DNA of 64,000 bases, from the NCBI GenBank assembly GCA_913009335.1, contig CAJVXN010000006.1:562-64561 (forward strand), given 5' to 3'. Made by a program: the position numbers and the translations under genes. Origin of the DNA: an uncultured bacterium (GTDB taxonomy: Bacteria; Omnitrophota; Gorgyraeia; Ghiorseimicrobiales; Ghiorseimicrobiaceae). The notes beneath the pieces were generated by a model that had not been told where the DNA came from, did no database searches, and saw only the letters and a list, made by a program, of their open reading frames with translations. Below are positions 1-52,043 of this stretch, one piece after another (the stretch's first letter is position 1; each line of letters opens with the position of its first letter).

Positions 1-883
1 GATACAAACTATTCTTGTTGAACGTGGCGGTATTGTATTGATAGATGAGGTTGAGCAGGGGCTAGAGCCAGATAGAGTTAAGCACTTGGTTAGATCTTTA
101 AAAAAAGACAACGCCGGTCAAATCTTTATGACAACTCATTCTAGTGAGGTGATAACAGAATTAGATGCCGATGATTTGGTAATTATCAATAACAACAAGG
201 GCAACATTACTGTATCATCACCAGATCAGAATTTCCAAGATATCATCAGGGCCTGCCCTGAGGCTGGGTATGCAAAAAAAGTAGTTGTCTGCGAGGGGAA
301 AACAGAAATAGGTATTTGCAGAGCTTTAGATACCTATCGTAAAACCCAAGCCAAGGAATGTATGTCTGTTAAAGGTTGTGTTTATGTTTATGGAGGTGGG
401 CATAACTTCACTGAGCGCGCAAATAAATTGAAAGAATTAGGAGTAGAAACTTGTGTTTTTTGTGATTCGGATGATACAATGCTAAATCCAACAAAGGAAG
501 ACCTGAAAACAGCAGGCGTAACAATATTTGATTGTGATGAGGGTAACGCTATTGAACAACAGGTGTTCCAAGATTTACCTTGGGAAGGAATAAAAACTTT
601 GTTGGACTATGTCATTAAATATAAAAAAATGACTGAAACTCAACTGAAAGACTCAATAAGATCGAAATGTGATGGCGATTTCCCCGATGATTTTAAAAAT
701 GCAGACACTCCTCAAATGAGAAAGGCAATAGCCGATGCTTCACTTGTTGGGGATAAAGAATGGTTTAAAAGAATAGATCGCGGCGAATTTATAGGGGGTA
801 TTATTTTTAAATACTTTGGAGATATGACTGATAAGAAAACAAAAAATCAGTTAGAAGGTCTTTCAAGTTGGATAGATGGATAA
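1..883 (+). CDS. gajA: OLD-family ABC-ATPase/TOPRIM nuclease, GajA-like (5' truncated by window edge; frame open from nt 2)
   Basis: Reading frame continues to window start (...ILVERGGIVLIDEVEQGLEP = Walker B/D-loop of an ABC ATPase). Downstream TOPRIM signatures VVVCEGKTE (conserved Glu) and VFCDSDD (DxD). 16-nt overlap with the next gene, a UvrD-like helicase, as in Gabija/class-2 OLD loci. Confidence 0.6.
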   Translation, partial: IQTILVERGGIVLIDEVEQGLEPDRVKHLVRSLKKDNAGQIFMTTHSSEVITELDADDLVIINNNKGNITVSSPDQNFQDIIRACPEAGYAKKVVVCEGKTEIGICRALDTYRKTQAKECMSVKGCVYVYGGGHNFTERANKLKELGVETCVFCDSDDTMLNPTKEDLKTAGVTIFDCDEGNAIEQQVFQDLPWEGIKTLLDYVIKYKKMTETQLKDSIRSKCDGDFPDDFKNADTPQMRKAIADASLVGDKEWFKRIDRGEFIGGIIFKYFGDMTDKKTKNQLEGLSSWIDG

Positions 884-2313
884 TGGATTATGTAGATTTC
901 GTTTCAAAGGAAAAAAGTTTTGTTGTCGCCCCCGCAGGTTATGGTAAAACGCACGCCATAGCAATTTGTCTAAACCATACCCAAGGAAAACAACTTATAT
1001 TAACTCATACACATGCCGGAGTAGCTTCCTTAAAAGATAAGATACAAAGCCAGGAAATTTCAAATACTTTATATCGCGTTGAGACTATTACTAGTTTTGC
1101 TCAGAAATATGTTAATGCTTTTTATTGTGGTAATGATATTCCAGAACAGGATAATAGCAATGAATATTATCCGTTCATCATTGATAAGGCAAAAAGCTTG
1201 TTTAGAATAAACCCCATAAGAGATGTTGTTAGGTGTACATATGCAGGTCTATTTGTTGATGAATATCAAGATTGTAACATAGGACAACATAATCTTATAA
1301 AAGAATTAGCGTGTATATTACCTACTCGAATTTTAGGCGATCATCTGCAAGGAATATTTGATTTTAACGGTGATACATTAGTTGATTTTGAAGTTCATCT
1401 TTTCGATTTTGAAAAATTTCCTGATTTAGCTGAACCCTGGCGGTGGAAAAATAATAATCCAGAGCTAGGAGAAAGTTTGAAGTTGATACGCGAGTTACTA
1501 GAACAAAAAAAAAATATTGATTTAAGCAAACATGAGTCAAAAATTATTATTTTGGAAATAAATGAAAATGACAAATATACATATCAGTCGGAATACAATA
1601 AACAAATCTGGGCTTTGACTAATGAGGACAATGTGTTAATTATCCACCCGGATAGCACTAATTTAAACGTCAGGAAAGATTTCATAAGCAGATTTAACAA
1701 TTCTTTCATTTTAGTTGAGGCGATAGACAGCCAAGATTTTTACAAAATGTCAAAAAAATTTGATGGTATTAATACTACTAATGTTTTTAAAACTATATAC
1801 GATTTAGTTCCTAATATTTTTAATGGACGCACAAATAGAGATGTGTGGTTTAACTCAAACGGCGTCAAAAATAAACGGGCCAAAGAAGACAAGGCTCGCA
1901 TTGCCCCTATTTCTAAGGATATAGAACAACTAAAGCAAAAAATTTCTTTTGTGTTAATTTCAAATATATTAAAAAAGGTAAAAGAATTGCCTGGTGTAAA
2001 ATGCTATAGGCAAGAACTTTTATGGGATTTATGTGAGGCTCTTGAGCATGCGGGGAGTAAAGGCACATTGGTTCATGAAGAAATGAAAGAAATTAGGAAT
2101 CGTAAGCGCAGGGGAGGACGAAGGATTAGCGGACGATGCATAGGAACTACTTTATTAACTAAAGGATTAGAGTTTGATACAGTAGCCGTTTTAGATGCGC
2201 ATAATTTTAAATGCCGCAAAAATTTTTATGTTGCGATAACAAGGGCTTGTAAAAAACTAATAATATTTACAAATAATAAAATTCTTTTTCCTTATCATAA
2301 TTGTCATAATTGA
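868..2313 (+). CDS. gajB: UvrD/PcrA-like superfamily-1 helicase, GajB-like
   Basis: Walker A VVAPAGYGKTHAI, motif II LFVDEYQDCN (DExQD), C-terminal helicase motifs TLLTKGLEFDTVAVL and FYVAITRACKKL. ~480 aa, matching GajB size. Overlaps upstream OLD-like gene. Confidence 0.65.
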   Translation: MDRWIMDYVDFVSKEKSFVVAPAGYGKTHAIAICLNHTQGKQLILTHTHAGVASLKDKIQSQEISNTLYRVETITSFAQKYVNAFYCGNDIPEQDNSNEYYPFIIDKAKSLFRINPIRDVVRCTYAGLFVDEYQDCNIGQHNLIKELACILPTRILGDHLQGIFDFNGDTLVDFEVHLFDFEKFPDLAEPWRWKNNNPELGESLKLIRELLEQKKNIDLSKHESKIIILEINENDKYTYQSEYNKQIWALTNEDNVLIIHPDSTNLNVRKDFISRFNNSFILVEAIDSQDFYKMSKKFDGINTTNVFKTIYDLVPNIFNGRTNRDVWFNSNGVKNKRAKEDKARIAPISKDIEQLKQKISFVLISNILKKVKELPGVKCYRQELLWDLCEALEHAGSKGTLVHEEMKEIRNRKRRGGRRISGRCIGTTLLTKGLEFDTVAVLDAHNFKCRKNFYVAITRACKKLIIFTNNKILFPYHNCHN

Positions 2314-2828
2314 AATTGATTTTTTCCCTCGGCAATCACAGTCGTCCGGCTTCATTCGCCTTTGGCGTATTTCGCTACGGACTTTGTGCGCTTGCCTTCA
2401 CCCTCCTAAAAAAGGAGGGTAATCCTTAATATTTTCCCCGCCGGCATCAAAAAAAGATTTCCCTATTATAAAAAATTTTTTGTTTTTCCCAAAAAGCCCG
2501 ACGAAAGCGGGTGCCTGAGGAAGGGTATCATAACTACGCTATGATTGCACGATAACGCTGGTTTTGCAGGCTTGGAGTGCGGAAAGGGAAGGCACGACGA
2601 GTGCCGAAGCCCGCACGACAAGACTGCTTGTGAAAGCGAGCGGCCAAGCGAGCGAGGCAGTGAGCCTGAGCCCCAGCGAAGGCGAACGGTGAATACACCA
2701 ACCACGTAGCCCGCTGTAGCCGACGTTCAGGAGGCGCAAGCGGGCGGTGCATCATCAAGTCAATTCAGGACAGAAAACAGTAAAAAGGAATGGTTTGAAA
2801 TATTTGTAGAGAACAGACCAAGGGTCAG

Positions 2829-3003
2829 CCGAAGGTCCGGATGTAGACTTTTTGGGGCAAATTTTTGTAAATCTTTGATTTTTTTGACATTGTGATTTTC
2901 TTTCTGTTTCTGAAAACAAAAAATTAAAAGGGGGGAAAAGAGAAAAAGCAATTCTTTTTTGGGGCAAAGCACCGCCGACTGGCGGGGCGATTTTGATGTT
3001 TTT
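2829..3003 (-). repeat. Left inverted repeat of cassette (inverted copy of miaB promoter plus decayed miaB start)
   Basis: Reverse complement aligns with 7424-7598. The promoter-proximal ~125 bp is near-identical; the coding-proximal ~50 bp is diverged and would encode MSKKSKIYKNLPQKVYIRTFG-stop, a truncated MiaB N-terminus. Confidence 0.8.
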
Positions 3004-3120
3004 GCGTCTTGTCCTTCGGGCAATCCGCACGTCAATTCCCTAATTATCGTTAAAAAGCAGAAGAAAAAGAAAACCCCCGCCCGAAATATTTAGAGTAAAT
3101 ATTTCCCCCTATTAAACTTC

Positions 3121-3155
3121 TTGACAATTTGTGTAAAGTAACGTAAAGTATAGAT
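3121..3155 (+). promoter_or_regulatory. Candidate sigma70-like promoter/operator for cassette operon
   Basis: TTGACA at 3121-3126, candidate -10 TAAAGT/TATAGAT, and direct repeat GTAAAGTA x2 (possible operator) immediately upstream of the ATG at 3160. No obvious SD, so possibly a leaderless transcript. Confidence 0.35.
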
Positions 3156-3159
3156 CATT

Positions 3160-3338
3160 ATGAAAAAGAGATATAATCTTAGCGAAGCGGCAGAAATATT
3201 AGGCTTAACTCGTCAAGGGCTTTATTATTGGATAAAGAAGGGATGGGTAACTCCTAAACGTGATTATAAAGGCCACCCTGTGTTTATGGATGCTGATTTA
3301 AAAAAAATTAAAAAATGGAAAGATAAATTAGAAGAGGT

Positions 3339-3342
<4 letters not shown>
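3160..3342 (+). CDS. Excisionase/Xis-family (AlpA/MerR-like) HTH DNA-binding protein, putative recombination directionality factor
   Basis: 60 aa. LSEAAEILGLTRQGLYYWIKKG fits the excisionase-family HTH consensus. 4-nt ATGA overlap with the next gene. Co-located with a serine recombinase. Confidence 0.55.
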
Positions 3343-9423
<6,081 letters not shown>

Positions 9424-29700: not shown

Positions 29701-29774
29701 GGGCCCATAGCTCAGTCGGTTAGAGCAGTTGACTCATAATCAATTGGTCCGGGGTTCGAGTCCCTGTGGGCCCA
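29701..29774 (+). tRNA. tRNA-Met (anticodon CAT; elongator type or tRNA-Ile2)
   Basis: Cloverleaf: acceptor GGGCCCA/TGGGCCC, anticodon loop CTCATAA, T-loop TTCGAGT; G1-C72 paired, so not an initiator. Confidence 0.85.
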
Positions 29775-32904: not shown

Positions 32905-32978
32905 GGGCGCATAGCTCAGTTGGTTAGAGCATTTGCATCACACGCAAAGGGTCGAGGGTTCAAGTCCTTCTGCGCCCA
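32905..32978 (+). tRNA. tRNA-Val (anticodon CAC)
   Basis: Acceptor GGGCGCA/TGCGCCC, anticodon stem TTTGC/GCAAA with loop ATCACAC, T-loop TTCAAGT. Confidence 0.85.
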
Positions 32979-33043
32979 CTTAATTATAGCAAGTTGTTAT
33001 TTTATATAAAGTGCCGTGTTTCTAAAAAAATCCTCGACCCAAA

Positions 33044-34359: not shown

Positions 34360-34716
34360 AGATAAAAGGCAAGATGGCTACTCTTAGCGTAATTACGCTA
34401 AGAGAGGAAAGTCCGGGCTCCGGCAAGGCAACGTATCTCGATAATTTCGAGACATCCGCCTTAGGGTGGATAGGATAAGAGCCACAGAGACGAGTCTCCG
34501 TGTTTTTACGCGGAGGGTGAAACGCGGCAATCTCTACGTGGAGCAAGGTCATAAAGGAGGCGAGTCCGCCACAAACATTGGCGAGACAGGAACCAGCCTG
34601 GTTCGTTTGAGTCTCGGGTCGACTGCTTAAGATCCTGTAGCAATACGGGGTTAAAGATGAATGGTCATCATACCTGCCTGGCGACAGACAGGAACAAAAC
34701 CCGGCTTACCTTAAAT
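34360..34716 (+). ncRNA. rnpB: RNase P RNA (bacterial type A)
   Basis: GAGGAAAGTCCGGGCTCC (P4 5' strand) and ACAGGAACAAAACCCGGCTTAC (P4 3' strand); GGTGAAAC-type loops; 5' and 3' ends can pair (P1). Confidence 0.8.
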
Positions 34717-51750: not shown

Positions 51751-51794
51751 CCTTTTTTGTTTAAGATAATACAATATGGTTATTACAGGTTCTA

Positions 51795-52043
51795 AGAATA
51801 AGATTAAAACGGGAAGCGCCTGAAATTGGCGTACGGTCCCGCCGCTGTAACCGGTAGCGAAAATCTATATAGACGCCACTGCCTGATCAAATCAGGCGGG
51901 AAGGCAAGATGAGTAGAGAGCCGGAAGTCAGAAGACCTGCCTGTAAAATTGCGTAGAGAAGCAAAGATAAATCTACGCCCTCGTGGATAGGGATTAAAAA
52001 AAGCTGGGTGCAATCCCTTTGATGTTTATCAAAGGGATTTTTT
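51795..52043 (+). promoter_or_regulatory. Cobalamin (AdoCbl) riboswitch with terminator expression platform
   Basis: GGGAAGCGCCTGAAATTGGCG...GCTGTAACC...B12-box GCCACTG at 51874-51880. Terminator ATCCCTTTGAT-GTTT-ATCAAAGGGAT plus T7 at 52011-52043, immediately before cobC. Confidence 0.75.

What the first reader, a model, noticed from the sequence alone, without database searches (positions are those of the whole stretch)
1..2313. Gabija-like defence pair (OLD-family ATPase/TOPRIM + UvrD-like helicase) at the window edge
The truncated first ORF carries an ABC-ATPase Walker B followed by TOPRIM motifs (VVVCEGKTE, CDSDD). It overlaps by 16 nt a 481-aa superfamily-1 helicase with Walker A, DEYQD and C-terminal UvrD motifs. 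That pairing is the Gabija (GajA/GajB; class-2 OLD) architecture. It marks the left ~7.6 kb of the window as a defence island, and it sits next to a second candidate defence cassette.
Basis: partly seen in the sequence, partly recalled or inferred. Interest (0 to 1): 0.55.

Follow-up and report, generated by a model that had tools for sequence, protein, structure and literature searches.

The report
Gabija anti-phage gene pair, edge-truncated
The left edge of the window carries an ordinary two-gene Gabija anti-phage defence system (an OLD-family nuclease cut off by the window edge, plus its short UvrD-like helicase partner); standard defence-system profiles already recognise it, so it is a routine annotation and not a discovery.

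Summary
Window 2-883 (+) is the last 293 codons of an ABC-ATPase/TOPRIM protein. Window 883-2313 (+) is a 476-aa SF1 helicase whose ATG shares one base with the upstream TAA stop. PADLOC names them GajA (PDLC04168, E=5.6e-84) and GajB (PDLC04173, E=1.9e-137, full length). Two overlapping metagenome contigs extend the gene leftward. The rebuilt 559-aa GajA has a Walker A ATPase head and matches PDLC04168 end to end (E=4.4e-180). In 78 of 78 genomes from many phyla with readable upstream DNA, a GajA homologue abuts the GajB homologue, with no third conserved gene. Housekeeping UvrD/PcrA/Rep models score about 20-30 bits against cut-offs above 900. Fold searches put B. cereus GajA first for the nuclease. 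The GajB profile's best solved-structure match is B. cereus GajB. The clade is divergent: about 15% and 19-20% identity to the B. cereus proteins over the Foldseek structure alignments. Its TOPRIM profile finds no solved OLD protein by sequence alone. Function is inferred from family membership. Caveats: a near-identical population variant and the closest relative carry nonsense codons in gajA. The neighbouring "second cassette" is a separate 5.1-kb insertion carrying a serine recombinase. Verdict: a new member of a known kind, low interest.

The parts
2..883 (+). gajA, 3' part (codons 267-559 of a 559-codon gene, plus the TAA stop): C-terminal lobe of the ABC ATPase, the TOPRIM nuclease domain and the C-terminal helical region. 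The 5' 266 codons lie outside the window.
   Evidence: Open frame. PADLOC GajA PDLC04168 at 5.6e-84. Pfam AAA_21 and OLD-like_TOPRIM. The full gene was rebuilt from L001 and L083. AF2 model pLDDT 86.4; the top Foldseek PDB hits are B. cereus GajA.
32..61 (+). GajA Walker B region IVLIDEVEQG (D281, E282 in full-length numbering).
   Evidence: Motif positions. D281, E282, E284, G286, L287 and E288 are invariant in the 20-sequence alignment A3.
131..145 (+). GajA TTHSS segment (H312), the position of the ABC-ATPase H-loop.
   Evidence: H312 and S313 are invariant in A3. The assignment as H-loop is inferred from motif order.
281..307 (+). TOPRIM glutamate motif VVVCEGKTE (E364 at nt 293-295, E368 at nt 305-307).
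   Evidence: C363, E364, G365, T367 and E368 are invariant. They correspond by motif and spacing to BpOLD E400/E404 and BcGajA E379 (PMC6755086, PMC10781630).
392..400 (+). Conserved glycines G397 and G399 between the TOPRIM glutamate and DxD motifs.
   Evidence: G399 is invariant and G397 nearly invariant. They are the likely counterpart of BcGajA G409. This is an inference.
461..475 (+). TOPRIM DxD motif CDSDD (D421 at nt 464-466, D423 at nt 470-472).
   Evidence: D421, S422 and D423 are invariant. Counterparts are BcGajA D432/D434 and BpOLD D455/D457.
554..556 (+). E451 (in AIEQQ), candidate second-metal glutamate of the helical domain.
   Evidence: Invariant in A1, A3 and A6. Equivalence to BpOLD E508 is inferred from order and spacing only, not from a superposition.
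767..769 (+). K522 (in WFKRID), candidate catalytic lysine of the helical domain.
   Evidence: W520 and K522 are invariant. It lies 101 residues after the first DxD aspartate, against 107 in BpOLD (D455 to K562). This is an inference.
883..2313 (+). gajB: 476-aa short SF1A UvrD-like helicase/NTPase. Its ATG shares one base with the gajA stop (TAATG).
   Evidence: PADLOC GajB PDLC04173 at 1.9e-137, covering 5-467 of 471. Pfam UvrD-helicase, AAA_19 and Viral_helicase1 above their gathering cut-offs; UvrD_C_2 at 22.3 bits, below its 27.4-bit cut-off. 100% identical to the 476-aa protein P0065. AF2 pLDDT 91.4. Foldseek finds UvrD and GajB.
928..954 (+). GajB motif I / Walker A, APAGYGKTH (K22 at nt 946-948).
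   Evidence: A18, G19, G21, K22 and T23 are invariant in A2.
1258..1272 (+). GajB motif II, the DEYQD (DExQD) box.
   Evidence: D126, E127, Y128, Q129 and D130 are invariant. The DEXQD box is named as a GajB feature in PMC10781630.
2227..2247 (+). GajB motif VI region, YVAITRA (R454).
   Evidence: Y449, V450, A451, T453 and R454 are invariant.
2401..2419 (+). Hairpin CCCTCC-TAAAAAA-GGAGGG, 88 nt after the gajB stop. It is a possible operon terminator and sits at the point where homology to the relative L082 ends (window 2404).
   Evidence: Sequence read. Homology end. The terminator scan did not call it because the T-tail is weak, so this is a weak inference.

Best explanation
Window 2-2313 is the 3' 52% of gajA plus a complete gajB. 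Together they form a two-gene Gabija (class 2 OLD nuclease + UvrD-like helicase) anti-phage operon of the clade modelled by PADLOC PDLC04168/PDLC04173. It sits on the chromosome of an uncultured marine bacterium.

Shown here:
- the domain content: ABC ATPase with Walker A and B, a TOPRIM domain with E...E, G and DxD motifs, and an SF1A helicase with Walker A, a DExQD box and motif VI;
- the overlapping, co-oriented gene junction;
- the strict conservation of the pair across phyla with no third partner;
- the fold-level resemblance to B. cereus GajA and GajB.

Inferred from the characterised B. cereus VD045 system (PMC8136825; PMC10781630; bioRxiv 10.1101/2023.05.02.539174; PMC10822852):
- GajA tetramerises and docks GajB into a 4:4 complex;
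- nucleotide binding to the GajA ATPase domain keeps the TOPRIM nuclease off at normal NTP levels;
- during phage replication the nuclease nicks or cleaves DNA by two-metal catalysis;
- GajB senses the DNA ends produced and hydrolyses (d)ATP/(d)GTP, which deepens nucleotide depletion and aborts the infection.

The stop/start overlap of the two genes is consistent with co-translation. That it sets equal stoichiometry is an inference.
For: PADLOC gives GajA 5.6e-84 and GajB 1.9e-137 on the window ORFs. The rebuilt full-length GajA gives 4.4e-180 end to end. Pfam finds AAA_21 and OLD-like_TOPRIM in ORF1 and UvrD-helicase, AAA_19, Viral_helicase1 and UvrD_C_2 in ORF2.

The N-terminal ATPase head with Walker A was recovered from contigs that are 99.9% identical to the window.

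In 78 of 78 GTDB genome loci with upstream DNA, a GajA-family ORF abuts the GajB homologue on the same strand. The junctions lie within about -11 to +11 nt. No other gene family recurs in more than 7 of the 80 loci within 3 kb. The same pair occurs in 15 of 16 IMG/VR loci down to about 28% identity.

The GajB profile's best PDB match is B. cereus GajB at 5.9e-12. The top three Foldseek hits of the GajA model are B. cereus GajA entries 8x5i, 8u7i and 8sm3 at about 2e-6.

Catalytic-type residues E364, E368, D421, D423, E451 and K522 are invariant in the clade, as are GajB K22 and the DEYQD box. Purifying selection acts on both genes: dN/dS is 0.14 for gajA and 0.09 for gajB.
Against: No experiment exists for this clade as far as I could find, so function rests on homology.

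Sequence similarity to the characterised proteins is low. Identity to BcGajA is about 15% and to BcGajB 19-20%, both measured over the Foldseek structure alignments. Single-sequence phmmer finds no solved GajA. The full-length GajA profile ranks PtuA/retron ATPases and the class 1 TsOLD ahead of BcGajA. The TOPRIM-region profile finds no solved OLD protein at E<1. Foldseek ranks UvrD slightly ahead of GajB for the helicase.

The first 266 codons of gajA are not in the window. A near-identical variant (L001) has TGA at codon 148. The closest relative (L082) has two TAA codons in gajA. The copy in this genome could therefore be inactive.
Confidence: 0.88

Rival explanations
1. The pair is a decaying remnant. 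gajA in this genome is a pseudogene and only gajB, if anything, is functional, so no active defence system is present.
For: L001 is 99.9% identical to window 1-1154 and has an in-frame TGA at gajA codon 148, where homologues have Leu or Phe. The closest syntenic relative, L082, has TAA at codons 105 and 338 while its gajB is intact. In GTDB loci, gajA is split in L009 and L039, and gajB is split in L024 and L077.
Against: The 293 codons visible in the window are intact. L083 is closer to the window (1 mismatch in 3008 nt) and reads through codons 105-559 with Leu148. dN/dS of 0.14 shows that constraint has persisted for most of the divergence. The large majority of the 78 loci have an uninterrupted gajA of about 555-579 codons.
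Confidence: 0.12
2. ORF2 is a housekeeping UvrD/Rep/PcrA-type repair helicase that merely lies next to an unrelated ABC-type ATPase. The pairing is coincidental.
For: Foldseek's best hits for the helicase model are UvrD structures, at 1.8e-12 with query TM-score 0.59. JGI annotations call relatives 'DNA helicase-2/PcrA'.
Against: NCBIfam PcrA, UvrD and Rep equivalogs score 15-28 bits against cut-offs of 911-1168. The protein is 476 aa, against about 650-720 aa for those enzymes. The pair is invariant in 78 of 78 loci with overlapping junctions. Its distribution across phyla is patchy, at 40-69% identity, typical of horizontally moved defence genes. The sequence profile prefers GajB.
Confidence: 0.02
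3. It belongs to a different OLD/ABC-ATPase defence system (PARIS AriA/AriB, Septu PtuA/PtuB, a retron-associated class 3 OLD, or a stand-alone class 1 OLD), not to Gabija.
For: The GajA-family profile's best solved-structure sequence hits are retron Ec83/Ec78 PtuA-type ATPases, PtuA and the class 1 TsOLD. PADLOC also reports weaker Old, AriA, PtuA, AbiLi and mad3 matches.
Against: Those matches cover only the shared ABC-ATPase head, at E of 1e-8 to 1e-28 against 1e-180 for GajA. The TOPRIM is fused to the ATPase, unlike PARIS. The partner is an SF1 helicase, not an HNH protein (Septu) or a reverse transcriptase. No recurrent third gene appears near the pair in the 80 loci. No Rfam family reaches its gathering score in the left part of the window. 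By the published definition, an OLD next to a UvrD-like helicase is class 2 and therefore Gabija (PMC10568477).
Confidence: 0.03

Closest known systems
Gabija system of Bacillus cereus VD045 (GajA J8H9C1 / GajB; PDB 8SM3, 8U7I, 8J4T, 8X5I)
   Same: Two co-oriented genes, nuclease first. GajA is an ABC ATPase plus a TOPRIM domain with a Glu, a Gly and a DxD motif. GajB is a short (about 480-490 aa) SF1A helicase with Walker A and a DExQD box. These entries are the best Foldseek matches for the nuclease model. GajB is the best sequence-profile match for the helicase family.
   Different: Identity is only about 15% (GajA) and 19-20% (GajB) over the Foldseek structure alignments. Single-sequence searches do not connect the GajA proteins, and the TOPRIM profile does not reach BcGajA. 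GajA here is 559 aa, and the spacing from DxD to the candidate metal-B glutamate is 30 residues, against 53 in the class 2 BpOLD. The sequence-specific nicking site, NTP inhibition and 4:4 assembly are untested for this clade.
PADLOC-DB Gabija sub-models PDLC04168 (GajA) and PDLC04173 (GajB)
   Same: End-to-end matches with very high scores: 598 bits for the rebuilt GajA and 457 bits for GajB. This clade is already modelled and labelled Gabija in a public defence-system database.
   Different: None at the level tested. The models are computational family definitions. I found no experimental test of a member.
Class 2 OLD nucleases of Burkholderia pseudomallei and Xanthomonas campestris (PDB 6NK8, 6NJX)
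   Same: [quoted passage not shown] A TOPRIM domain followed by a helical domain. The candidate two-metal set (E, E, DxD, E) and a lysine are invariant in this clade. Foldseek hits 6nk8_B at 2.7e-4 and 6njx at 5e-3.
   Different: There is no significant sequence match. The threonine of the T-x-E motif is Ala in the window protein and Ser in the clade consensus. Residue equivalences are inferred from order, not from a superposition.
Class 1 OLD (Thermus scotoductus OLD, PDB 6P74; phage P2 Old)
   Same: The same ATPase + TOPRIM architecture. Profile E=1.6e-10 on the ATPase head, Foldseek 3.6e-6 and PADLOC Old 3.8e-28.
   Different: Class 1 proteins are stand-alone genes (PMC10568477). Here a helicase partner is always present.

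Membership tests
Gabija / class 2 OLD system | An OLD-family protein: an N-terminal ABC ATPase (Walker A/B) fused to a C-terminal TOPRIM domain. | tested here: met
   In the window: Walker B, the AAA_21 C-terminal end and OLD-like_TOPRIM at 28.5 bits against a cut-off of 23.2. The ATPase head with GRGDSGKT was recovered from L001 and L083. The rebuilt protein hits AAA_15, AAA_21, SMC_N, AAA_23 and TOPRIM.
Gabija / class 2 OLD system | The adjacent, co-oriented partner gene encodes a UvrD/PcrA/Rep-like SF1 helicase (GajB). | tested here: met
   ORF 883-2313 overlaps the gajA stop by 1 nt. Pfam finds UvrD-helicase, AAA_19 and UvrD_C_2. PADLOC GajB at 1.9e-137. The pair is conserved in 78 of 78 loci.
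Gabija / class 2 OLD system | A complete TOPRIM active site: an invariant Glu, an invariant Gly and a DxD motif (BcGajA E379, G409, D432/D434). | tested here: met
   E364 (and E368), G399 and D421-S-D423 are present in the window and invariant across 20 clade members.
Gabija / class 2 OLD system | A class 2 helical domain that supplies the metal-B ligands (T-x-E) and a catalytic Lys (BpOLD T506, E508, K562). | tested here: inconclusive
Gabija / class 2 OLD system | GajB carries Walker A and a DExQD-box Walker B. | tested here: met
   AGYGKT and DEYQD are invariant in 25 sequences.
Gabija / class 2 OLD system | Recognition by curated or dedicated Gabija profiles for both proteins. | tested here: met
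   PADLOC PDLC04168 and PDLC04173 match end to end. The older GajA and GajB models also match, at 1e-22 and 1e-18. DefenseFinder was not available.
Gabija / class 2 OLD system | A 4:4 GajA-GajB supramolecular complex, an NTP-inhibited nuclease and protection against phage. | not testable with these tools
   This needs biochemistry, cryo-EM and plaque assays. It is known only for the B. cereus system (PMC10781630, PMC8136825, PMC10822852).
Housekeeping UvrD/Rep/PcrA | Passing the NCBIfam equivalog cut-offs, a length of about 650-720 aa, and full 2B and C-terminal domains. | tested here: not met
   PcrA 27.5 bits against 911, UvrD 21.3 against 1144, Rep 16.4 against 951. Length 476 aa.
PARIS / Septu / retron class 3 OLD | The partner is a separate TOPRIM protein (AriB), an HNH protein (PtuB), or a reverse transcriptase with its ncRNA. 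| tested here: not met
   The partner is an SF1 helicase. No recurrent third gene lies within 3 kb in 80 loci. No Rfam family reaches its gathering score in the left part of the window. Matches to AriA and PtuA are confined to the ATPase head.

The most novel reading that the evidence does not exclude
The PDLC04168/PDLC04173 clade may be a mechanistically distinct branch of class 2 OLD systems. Its TOPRIM/helical region has no detectable sequence similarity to any solved OLD nuclease. The spacing of its candidate metal-B site differs from BpOLD. Its helicase is unusually conserved across phyla (65-69% identity between Omnitrophota, Planctomycetota, Aminicenantes and this genome). It might therefore recognise a different trigger or cut DNA differently from B. 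cereus Gabija, for example non-specifically or only at ends. The recurrent nonsense alleles of gajA next to an intact gajB could then reflect a fitness cost or autoimmunity of the nuclease in natural populations.
Probability: 0.15. Interest if true: 0.4.

Novelty: new member of a known kind. Interest (0 to 1): 0.15.

Why it matters
Mostly as an annotation. It fixes the identity of the first 2.3 kb of the window and gives the correct start of gajB. It also shows that the gene cut by the window edge is a complete 559-codon gajA in sister contigs.

It adds a member of a divergent, experimentally untested Gabija clade that is widespread in uncultured aquatic phyla.

Natural nonsense alleles of gajA in the same population and in the nearest relative give a small, concrete example of gain and loss of defence genes.

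Nothing here challenges current understanding of Gabija.

Tried and rejected
- Single-sequence PDB searches: none for GajA and only weak UvrD hits for GajB. Profiles were needed.
- The TOPRIM-only profile against the PDB gave nothing significant.
- Exact look-up of the window's own GajB protein in the contig index failed. The parent contig's extra 889 nt could therefore not be read, and sister contigs L001 and L083 were used instead.
- Recoding of TGA as an explanation for the in-frame stop in L001 was rejected. TGA ends 11 of 52 long ORFs in the window. The three nonsense codons in L001 and L082 replace three different amino acids (Leu, Glu, Ser) and are single-base changes.
- A GTDB scan did not contain the source genome. 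The cluster look-up gave no names.
- Two literature searches for 'TrlF' found nothing relevant.
- An Rfam search of the gajB-HTH spacer gave only a sub-threshold Gut-1 match at E=0.14, taken as chance.
- Promoter and terminator scans were no better than shuffled sequence.
Full report
**Observation**

Frame 2 of the + strand is open from base 2 to a TAA ending at 883. The 293 residues contain IVLIDEVEQG (nt 32-61), TTHSS (nt 131-145), VVVCEGKTE (nt 281-307) and CDSDD (nt 461-475).

A second ORF runs to 2313. The ATG at 883 is the supported start. The consensus of 25 homologues begins MDYxxFVSK, and the identical database protein P0065 is 476 aa. The junction is therefore TAATG, a 1-nt overlap.

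The helicase carries APAGYGKTH (nt 928-954), DEYQD (nt 1258-1272) and YVAITRA (nt 2227-2247).

**Family assignment**

PADLOC-DB matches ORF1 to GajA model PDLC04168 (E=5.6e-84, profile positions 269-568 of 570). It matches ORF2 to GajB model PDLC04173 (E=1.9e-137, positions 5-467 of 471).

Pfam gives AAA_21 and OLD-like_TOPRIM for ORF1, both above gathering. For ORF2 it gives UvrD-helicase, AAA_19 and Viral_helicase1 above gathering, and UvrD_C_2 below it.

NCBIfam equivalogs for PcrA, UvrD and Rep score 15-28 bits against cut-offs of 911-1168. ORF2 is therefore not a housekeeping helicase.

**Recovering the missing 5' part of gajA**

The homologue search returned P0001, a 408-aa protein 100% identical to the window fragment. 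Its contig is L001 (ENA marine metagenome DRR093003, 2,059 nt). L001 overlaps window 1-1154 with one mismatch and extends 905 nt to the left.

A second contig, L083 (DRR093005, 3,494 nt), equals window 1-3008 with one mismatch and extends 486 nt to the left.

Together they define a 559-codon gajA. Its N-terminus, MARIHEIKIENFRGV...GRGDSGKTT, is a Walker A ABC-ATPase head. The rebuilt protein hits Pfam AAA_15, AAA_21, SMC_N, AAA_23 and OLD-like_TOPRIM. It matches PDLC04168 over 1-558 against profile positions 1-568 of 570, at E=4.4e-180.

**A caveat on integrity**

L001 has an in-frame TGA at codon 148, where homologues have Leu or Phe. L083 reads TTA (Leu) at that codon and is uninterrupted from codon 105 to the stop.

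The closest syntenic relative is L082 (JGI 3300022665; gajA 88% nt identity, GajB 78% aa identity). It has TAA at gajA codons 105 and 338, with gajB intact.

These are single-base nonsense changes of three different amino acids. TGA is also an ordinary stop in the window. Recoding is therefore excluded and these are loss-of-function alleles.

dN/dS between L001 and L082 is 0.14 for gajA. For gajB (window against L082) it is 0.09. Both genes were under constraint for most of their divergence.

Whether the window's own copy carries the codon-148 stop cannot be seen. L083 is the closer match over more sequence and is intact.

**Is the pairing real?**

A scan of one genome per GTDB species with the GajB alignment found at least 527 relatives, and the best 80 loci were kept. 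They come from Planctomycetota, Omnitrophota, Aminicenantes, Cyanobacteria, Bacteroidota, Leptospira, Gammaproteobacteria, Patescibacteria, a nanoarchaeon and others.

In all 78 loci with readable upstream DNA, a GajA-family ORF lies directly upstream on the same strand. The junctions lie within about -11 to +11 nt.

No other gene family recurs within 3 kb in more than 7 loci. The recurrent neighbours include a type I R-M methylase-like family and serine- and tyrosine-recombinase-like families.

The pair is also present in 15 of 16 IMG/VR loci, down to about 28% identity.

This is a self-contained two-gene cassette that moves horizontally.

**Distance from the characterised system**

Single-sequence searches of the PDB find no GajA and only weak UvrD matches for the helicase.

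The GajB family profile's best PDB match is B. cereus GajB at 5.9e-12, with both helicase lobes aligned. UvrD scores 2.5e-8.

The GajA family profile matches mainly through the ABC head. Its best hits are retron/PtuA ATPases and the class 1 TsOLD at 1.6e-10, and BcGajA is not among the top 60. A profile of the TOPRIM/C-terminal region alone finds no solved OLD protein at E<1.

Structure prediction closes the gap. The GajA model (P0001, pLDDT 86.4) has B. cereus GajA entries 8x5i, 8u7i and 8sm3 as its three best Foldseek hits (about 2e-6, about 430 aligned columns, 15% identity). TsOLD follows, and the class 2 BpOLD and XccOLD C-terminal regions also appear.

The GajB model (pLDDT 91.4) hits UvrD at 1.8e-12 and GajB at 8.7e-11. 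The highest identity, 19-20%, is to GajB.

**Active sites**

Antine et al. (PMC10781630) define the GajA TOPRIM site as E379, G409 and D432/D434. They define the GajB site as Walker A plus a DEXQD box.

Schiltz et al. (PMC6755086) define the class 2 two-metal set as E400, E404, D455, D457, T506, E508 and K562.

In this clade E364, E368, G399, D421, D423, E451 and K522 are invariant. So are GajB G19, G21, K22, T23 and the DEYQD box.

The equivalence of E451 and K522 to E508 and K562 is inferred from order and spacing. The Thr position is Ala in the window and Ser in the consensus, and the DxD-to-Glu distance is 30 residues instead of 53. That membership row therefore stays inconclusive.

**Mechanism**

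[quoted passage not shown] I therefore assign the B. cereus mechanism by homology:

- an NTP-gated GajA nuclease (PMC8136825);
- a 4:4 GajAB complex (PMC10781630, PMC10822852);
- hydrolysis of (d)ATP/(d)GTP by GajB, stimulated by DNA ends, leading to abortive infection (bioRxiv 10.1101/2023.05.02.539174).

Shown here are the domains, motifs, pairing, fold and purifying selection. The oligomeric state, the trigger, the cleavage specificity and the anti-phage phenotype are inferred.

**Surroundings**

Homology between the window and L082 runs from window 1 to 2404 and resumes at 7528, at the start of miaB. In L082, gajB is followed directly by miaB.

Window 2405-7527 is therefore an insertion relative to that relative. 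It contains:

- a GC-rich, RNA-like stretch at 2490-2760;
- a 178-nt inverted repeat, with arms at 2826-3003 and 7424-7601;
- a MerR/mad1-like HTH gene at 3160-3342;
- a TrlF-family PHP + ABC ATPase at 3339-5951 (NF045780, 527 bits; Ppl matches only the N-terminus);
- a large serine recombinase at 5948-7609.

Contigs L083 and L084 confirm the arrangement independently.

The 'second cassette' is thus a separately acquired element, probably mobile, and its defence role is only a candidate. 'Defence island' is a fair loose description, but the two modules have different histories.

**Verdict**

This is a new member of a known, already-modelled kind and of low interest. The divergence of the clade from the characterised proteins leaves a modest possibility that its mechanistic details differ.

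Noticed in passing
window 2405-7527 (compare L082 5078-5367): This 5.1-kb block is absent from the closest syntenic relative, where gajB is followed directly by miaB. It carries a small HTH gene (3160-3342, mad1/MerR-like), a TrlF-family PHP + ABC ATPase (3339-5951) and a large serine recombinase (5948-7609) in one overlapping operon. It looks like a separately acquired, possibly mobile, candidate defence cassette.
   Followed up: partly
window 2826-3003 and 7424-7601: A 178-nt inverted repeat (94% complementary) brackets the HTH/TrlF/recombinase genes. Each arm is a copy of the miaB upstream region plus about the first 21 miaB codons. Homology between the arms ends inside the codons for the FGCQMN motif. 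The last ~60 codons of the recombinase ORF are read from the right arm. Contigs L083 and L084 from another sample support the structure. No explanation was found; inversion switch, insertion by-product and other origins remain open.
   Followed up: partly
window 2490-2760 (+): This stretch has 50-55% GC in a 37% GC genome. It folds into multiple hairpins with GNRA-like loops (MFE -113.8 kcal/mol, z=-3.2, 0 of 200 shuffles as stable). It has no Rfam match even at E<=1, no second copy in the window and no copy in any fetched locus. It could be an unclassified structured RNA belonging to the inserted block.
   Followed up: partly
L001 550-552; L082 2202-2204 and 2901-2903: There are independent single-base nonsense mutations in gajA. 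A near-identical population variant has L148 changed to TGA. The nearest relative has E105 and S338 changed to TAA. gajB stays intact in both, which suggests recurrent loss of the nuclease gene in nature.
   Followed up: yes
window 1-2404 vs L082 2687-5078: Divergence within the operon is uneven. Between the two lineages dS is about 0.39 for gajA and about 1.58 for gajB, and the synonymous-site distance in the flanking miaB was too high to estimate (saturated). This hints at recombination or replacement of part of the cassette at a fixed chromosomal site.
   Followed up: partly
window 7537-9423: The miaB-like ORF is 628 aa. UPF0004 and Radical_SAM domains (residues 14-324) are fused in frame to a hydrophobic segment, TPR repeats and a SPOR domain (residues 414-618). 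It has no TRAM domain. The L082 orthologue is a normal 454-aa protein. This may be a gene fusion or a lost stop codon.
   Followed up: partly
window 34366-34716, 51770-51958, 29701-29774, 32905-32979: RNase P RNA (bacterial class A), a cobalamin riboswitch, tRNA-Met and tRNA-Val are present. This fits a chromosomal bacterial context, not a phage or plasmid.
   Followed up: no
L085-L099 (IMG/VR contigs): The same gajA-gajB pair, at 28-42% identity to the window proteins, occurs on contigs classified as viral. Members of this Gabija clade therefore also travel on phages or prophages.
   Followed up: partly
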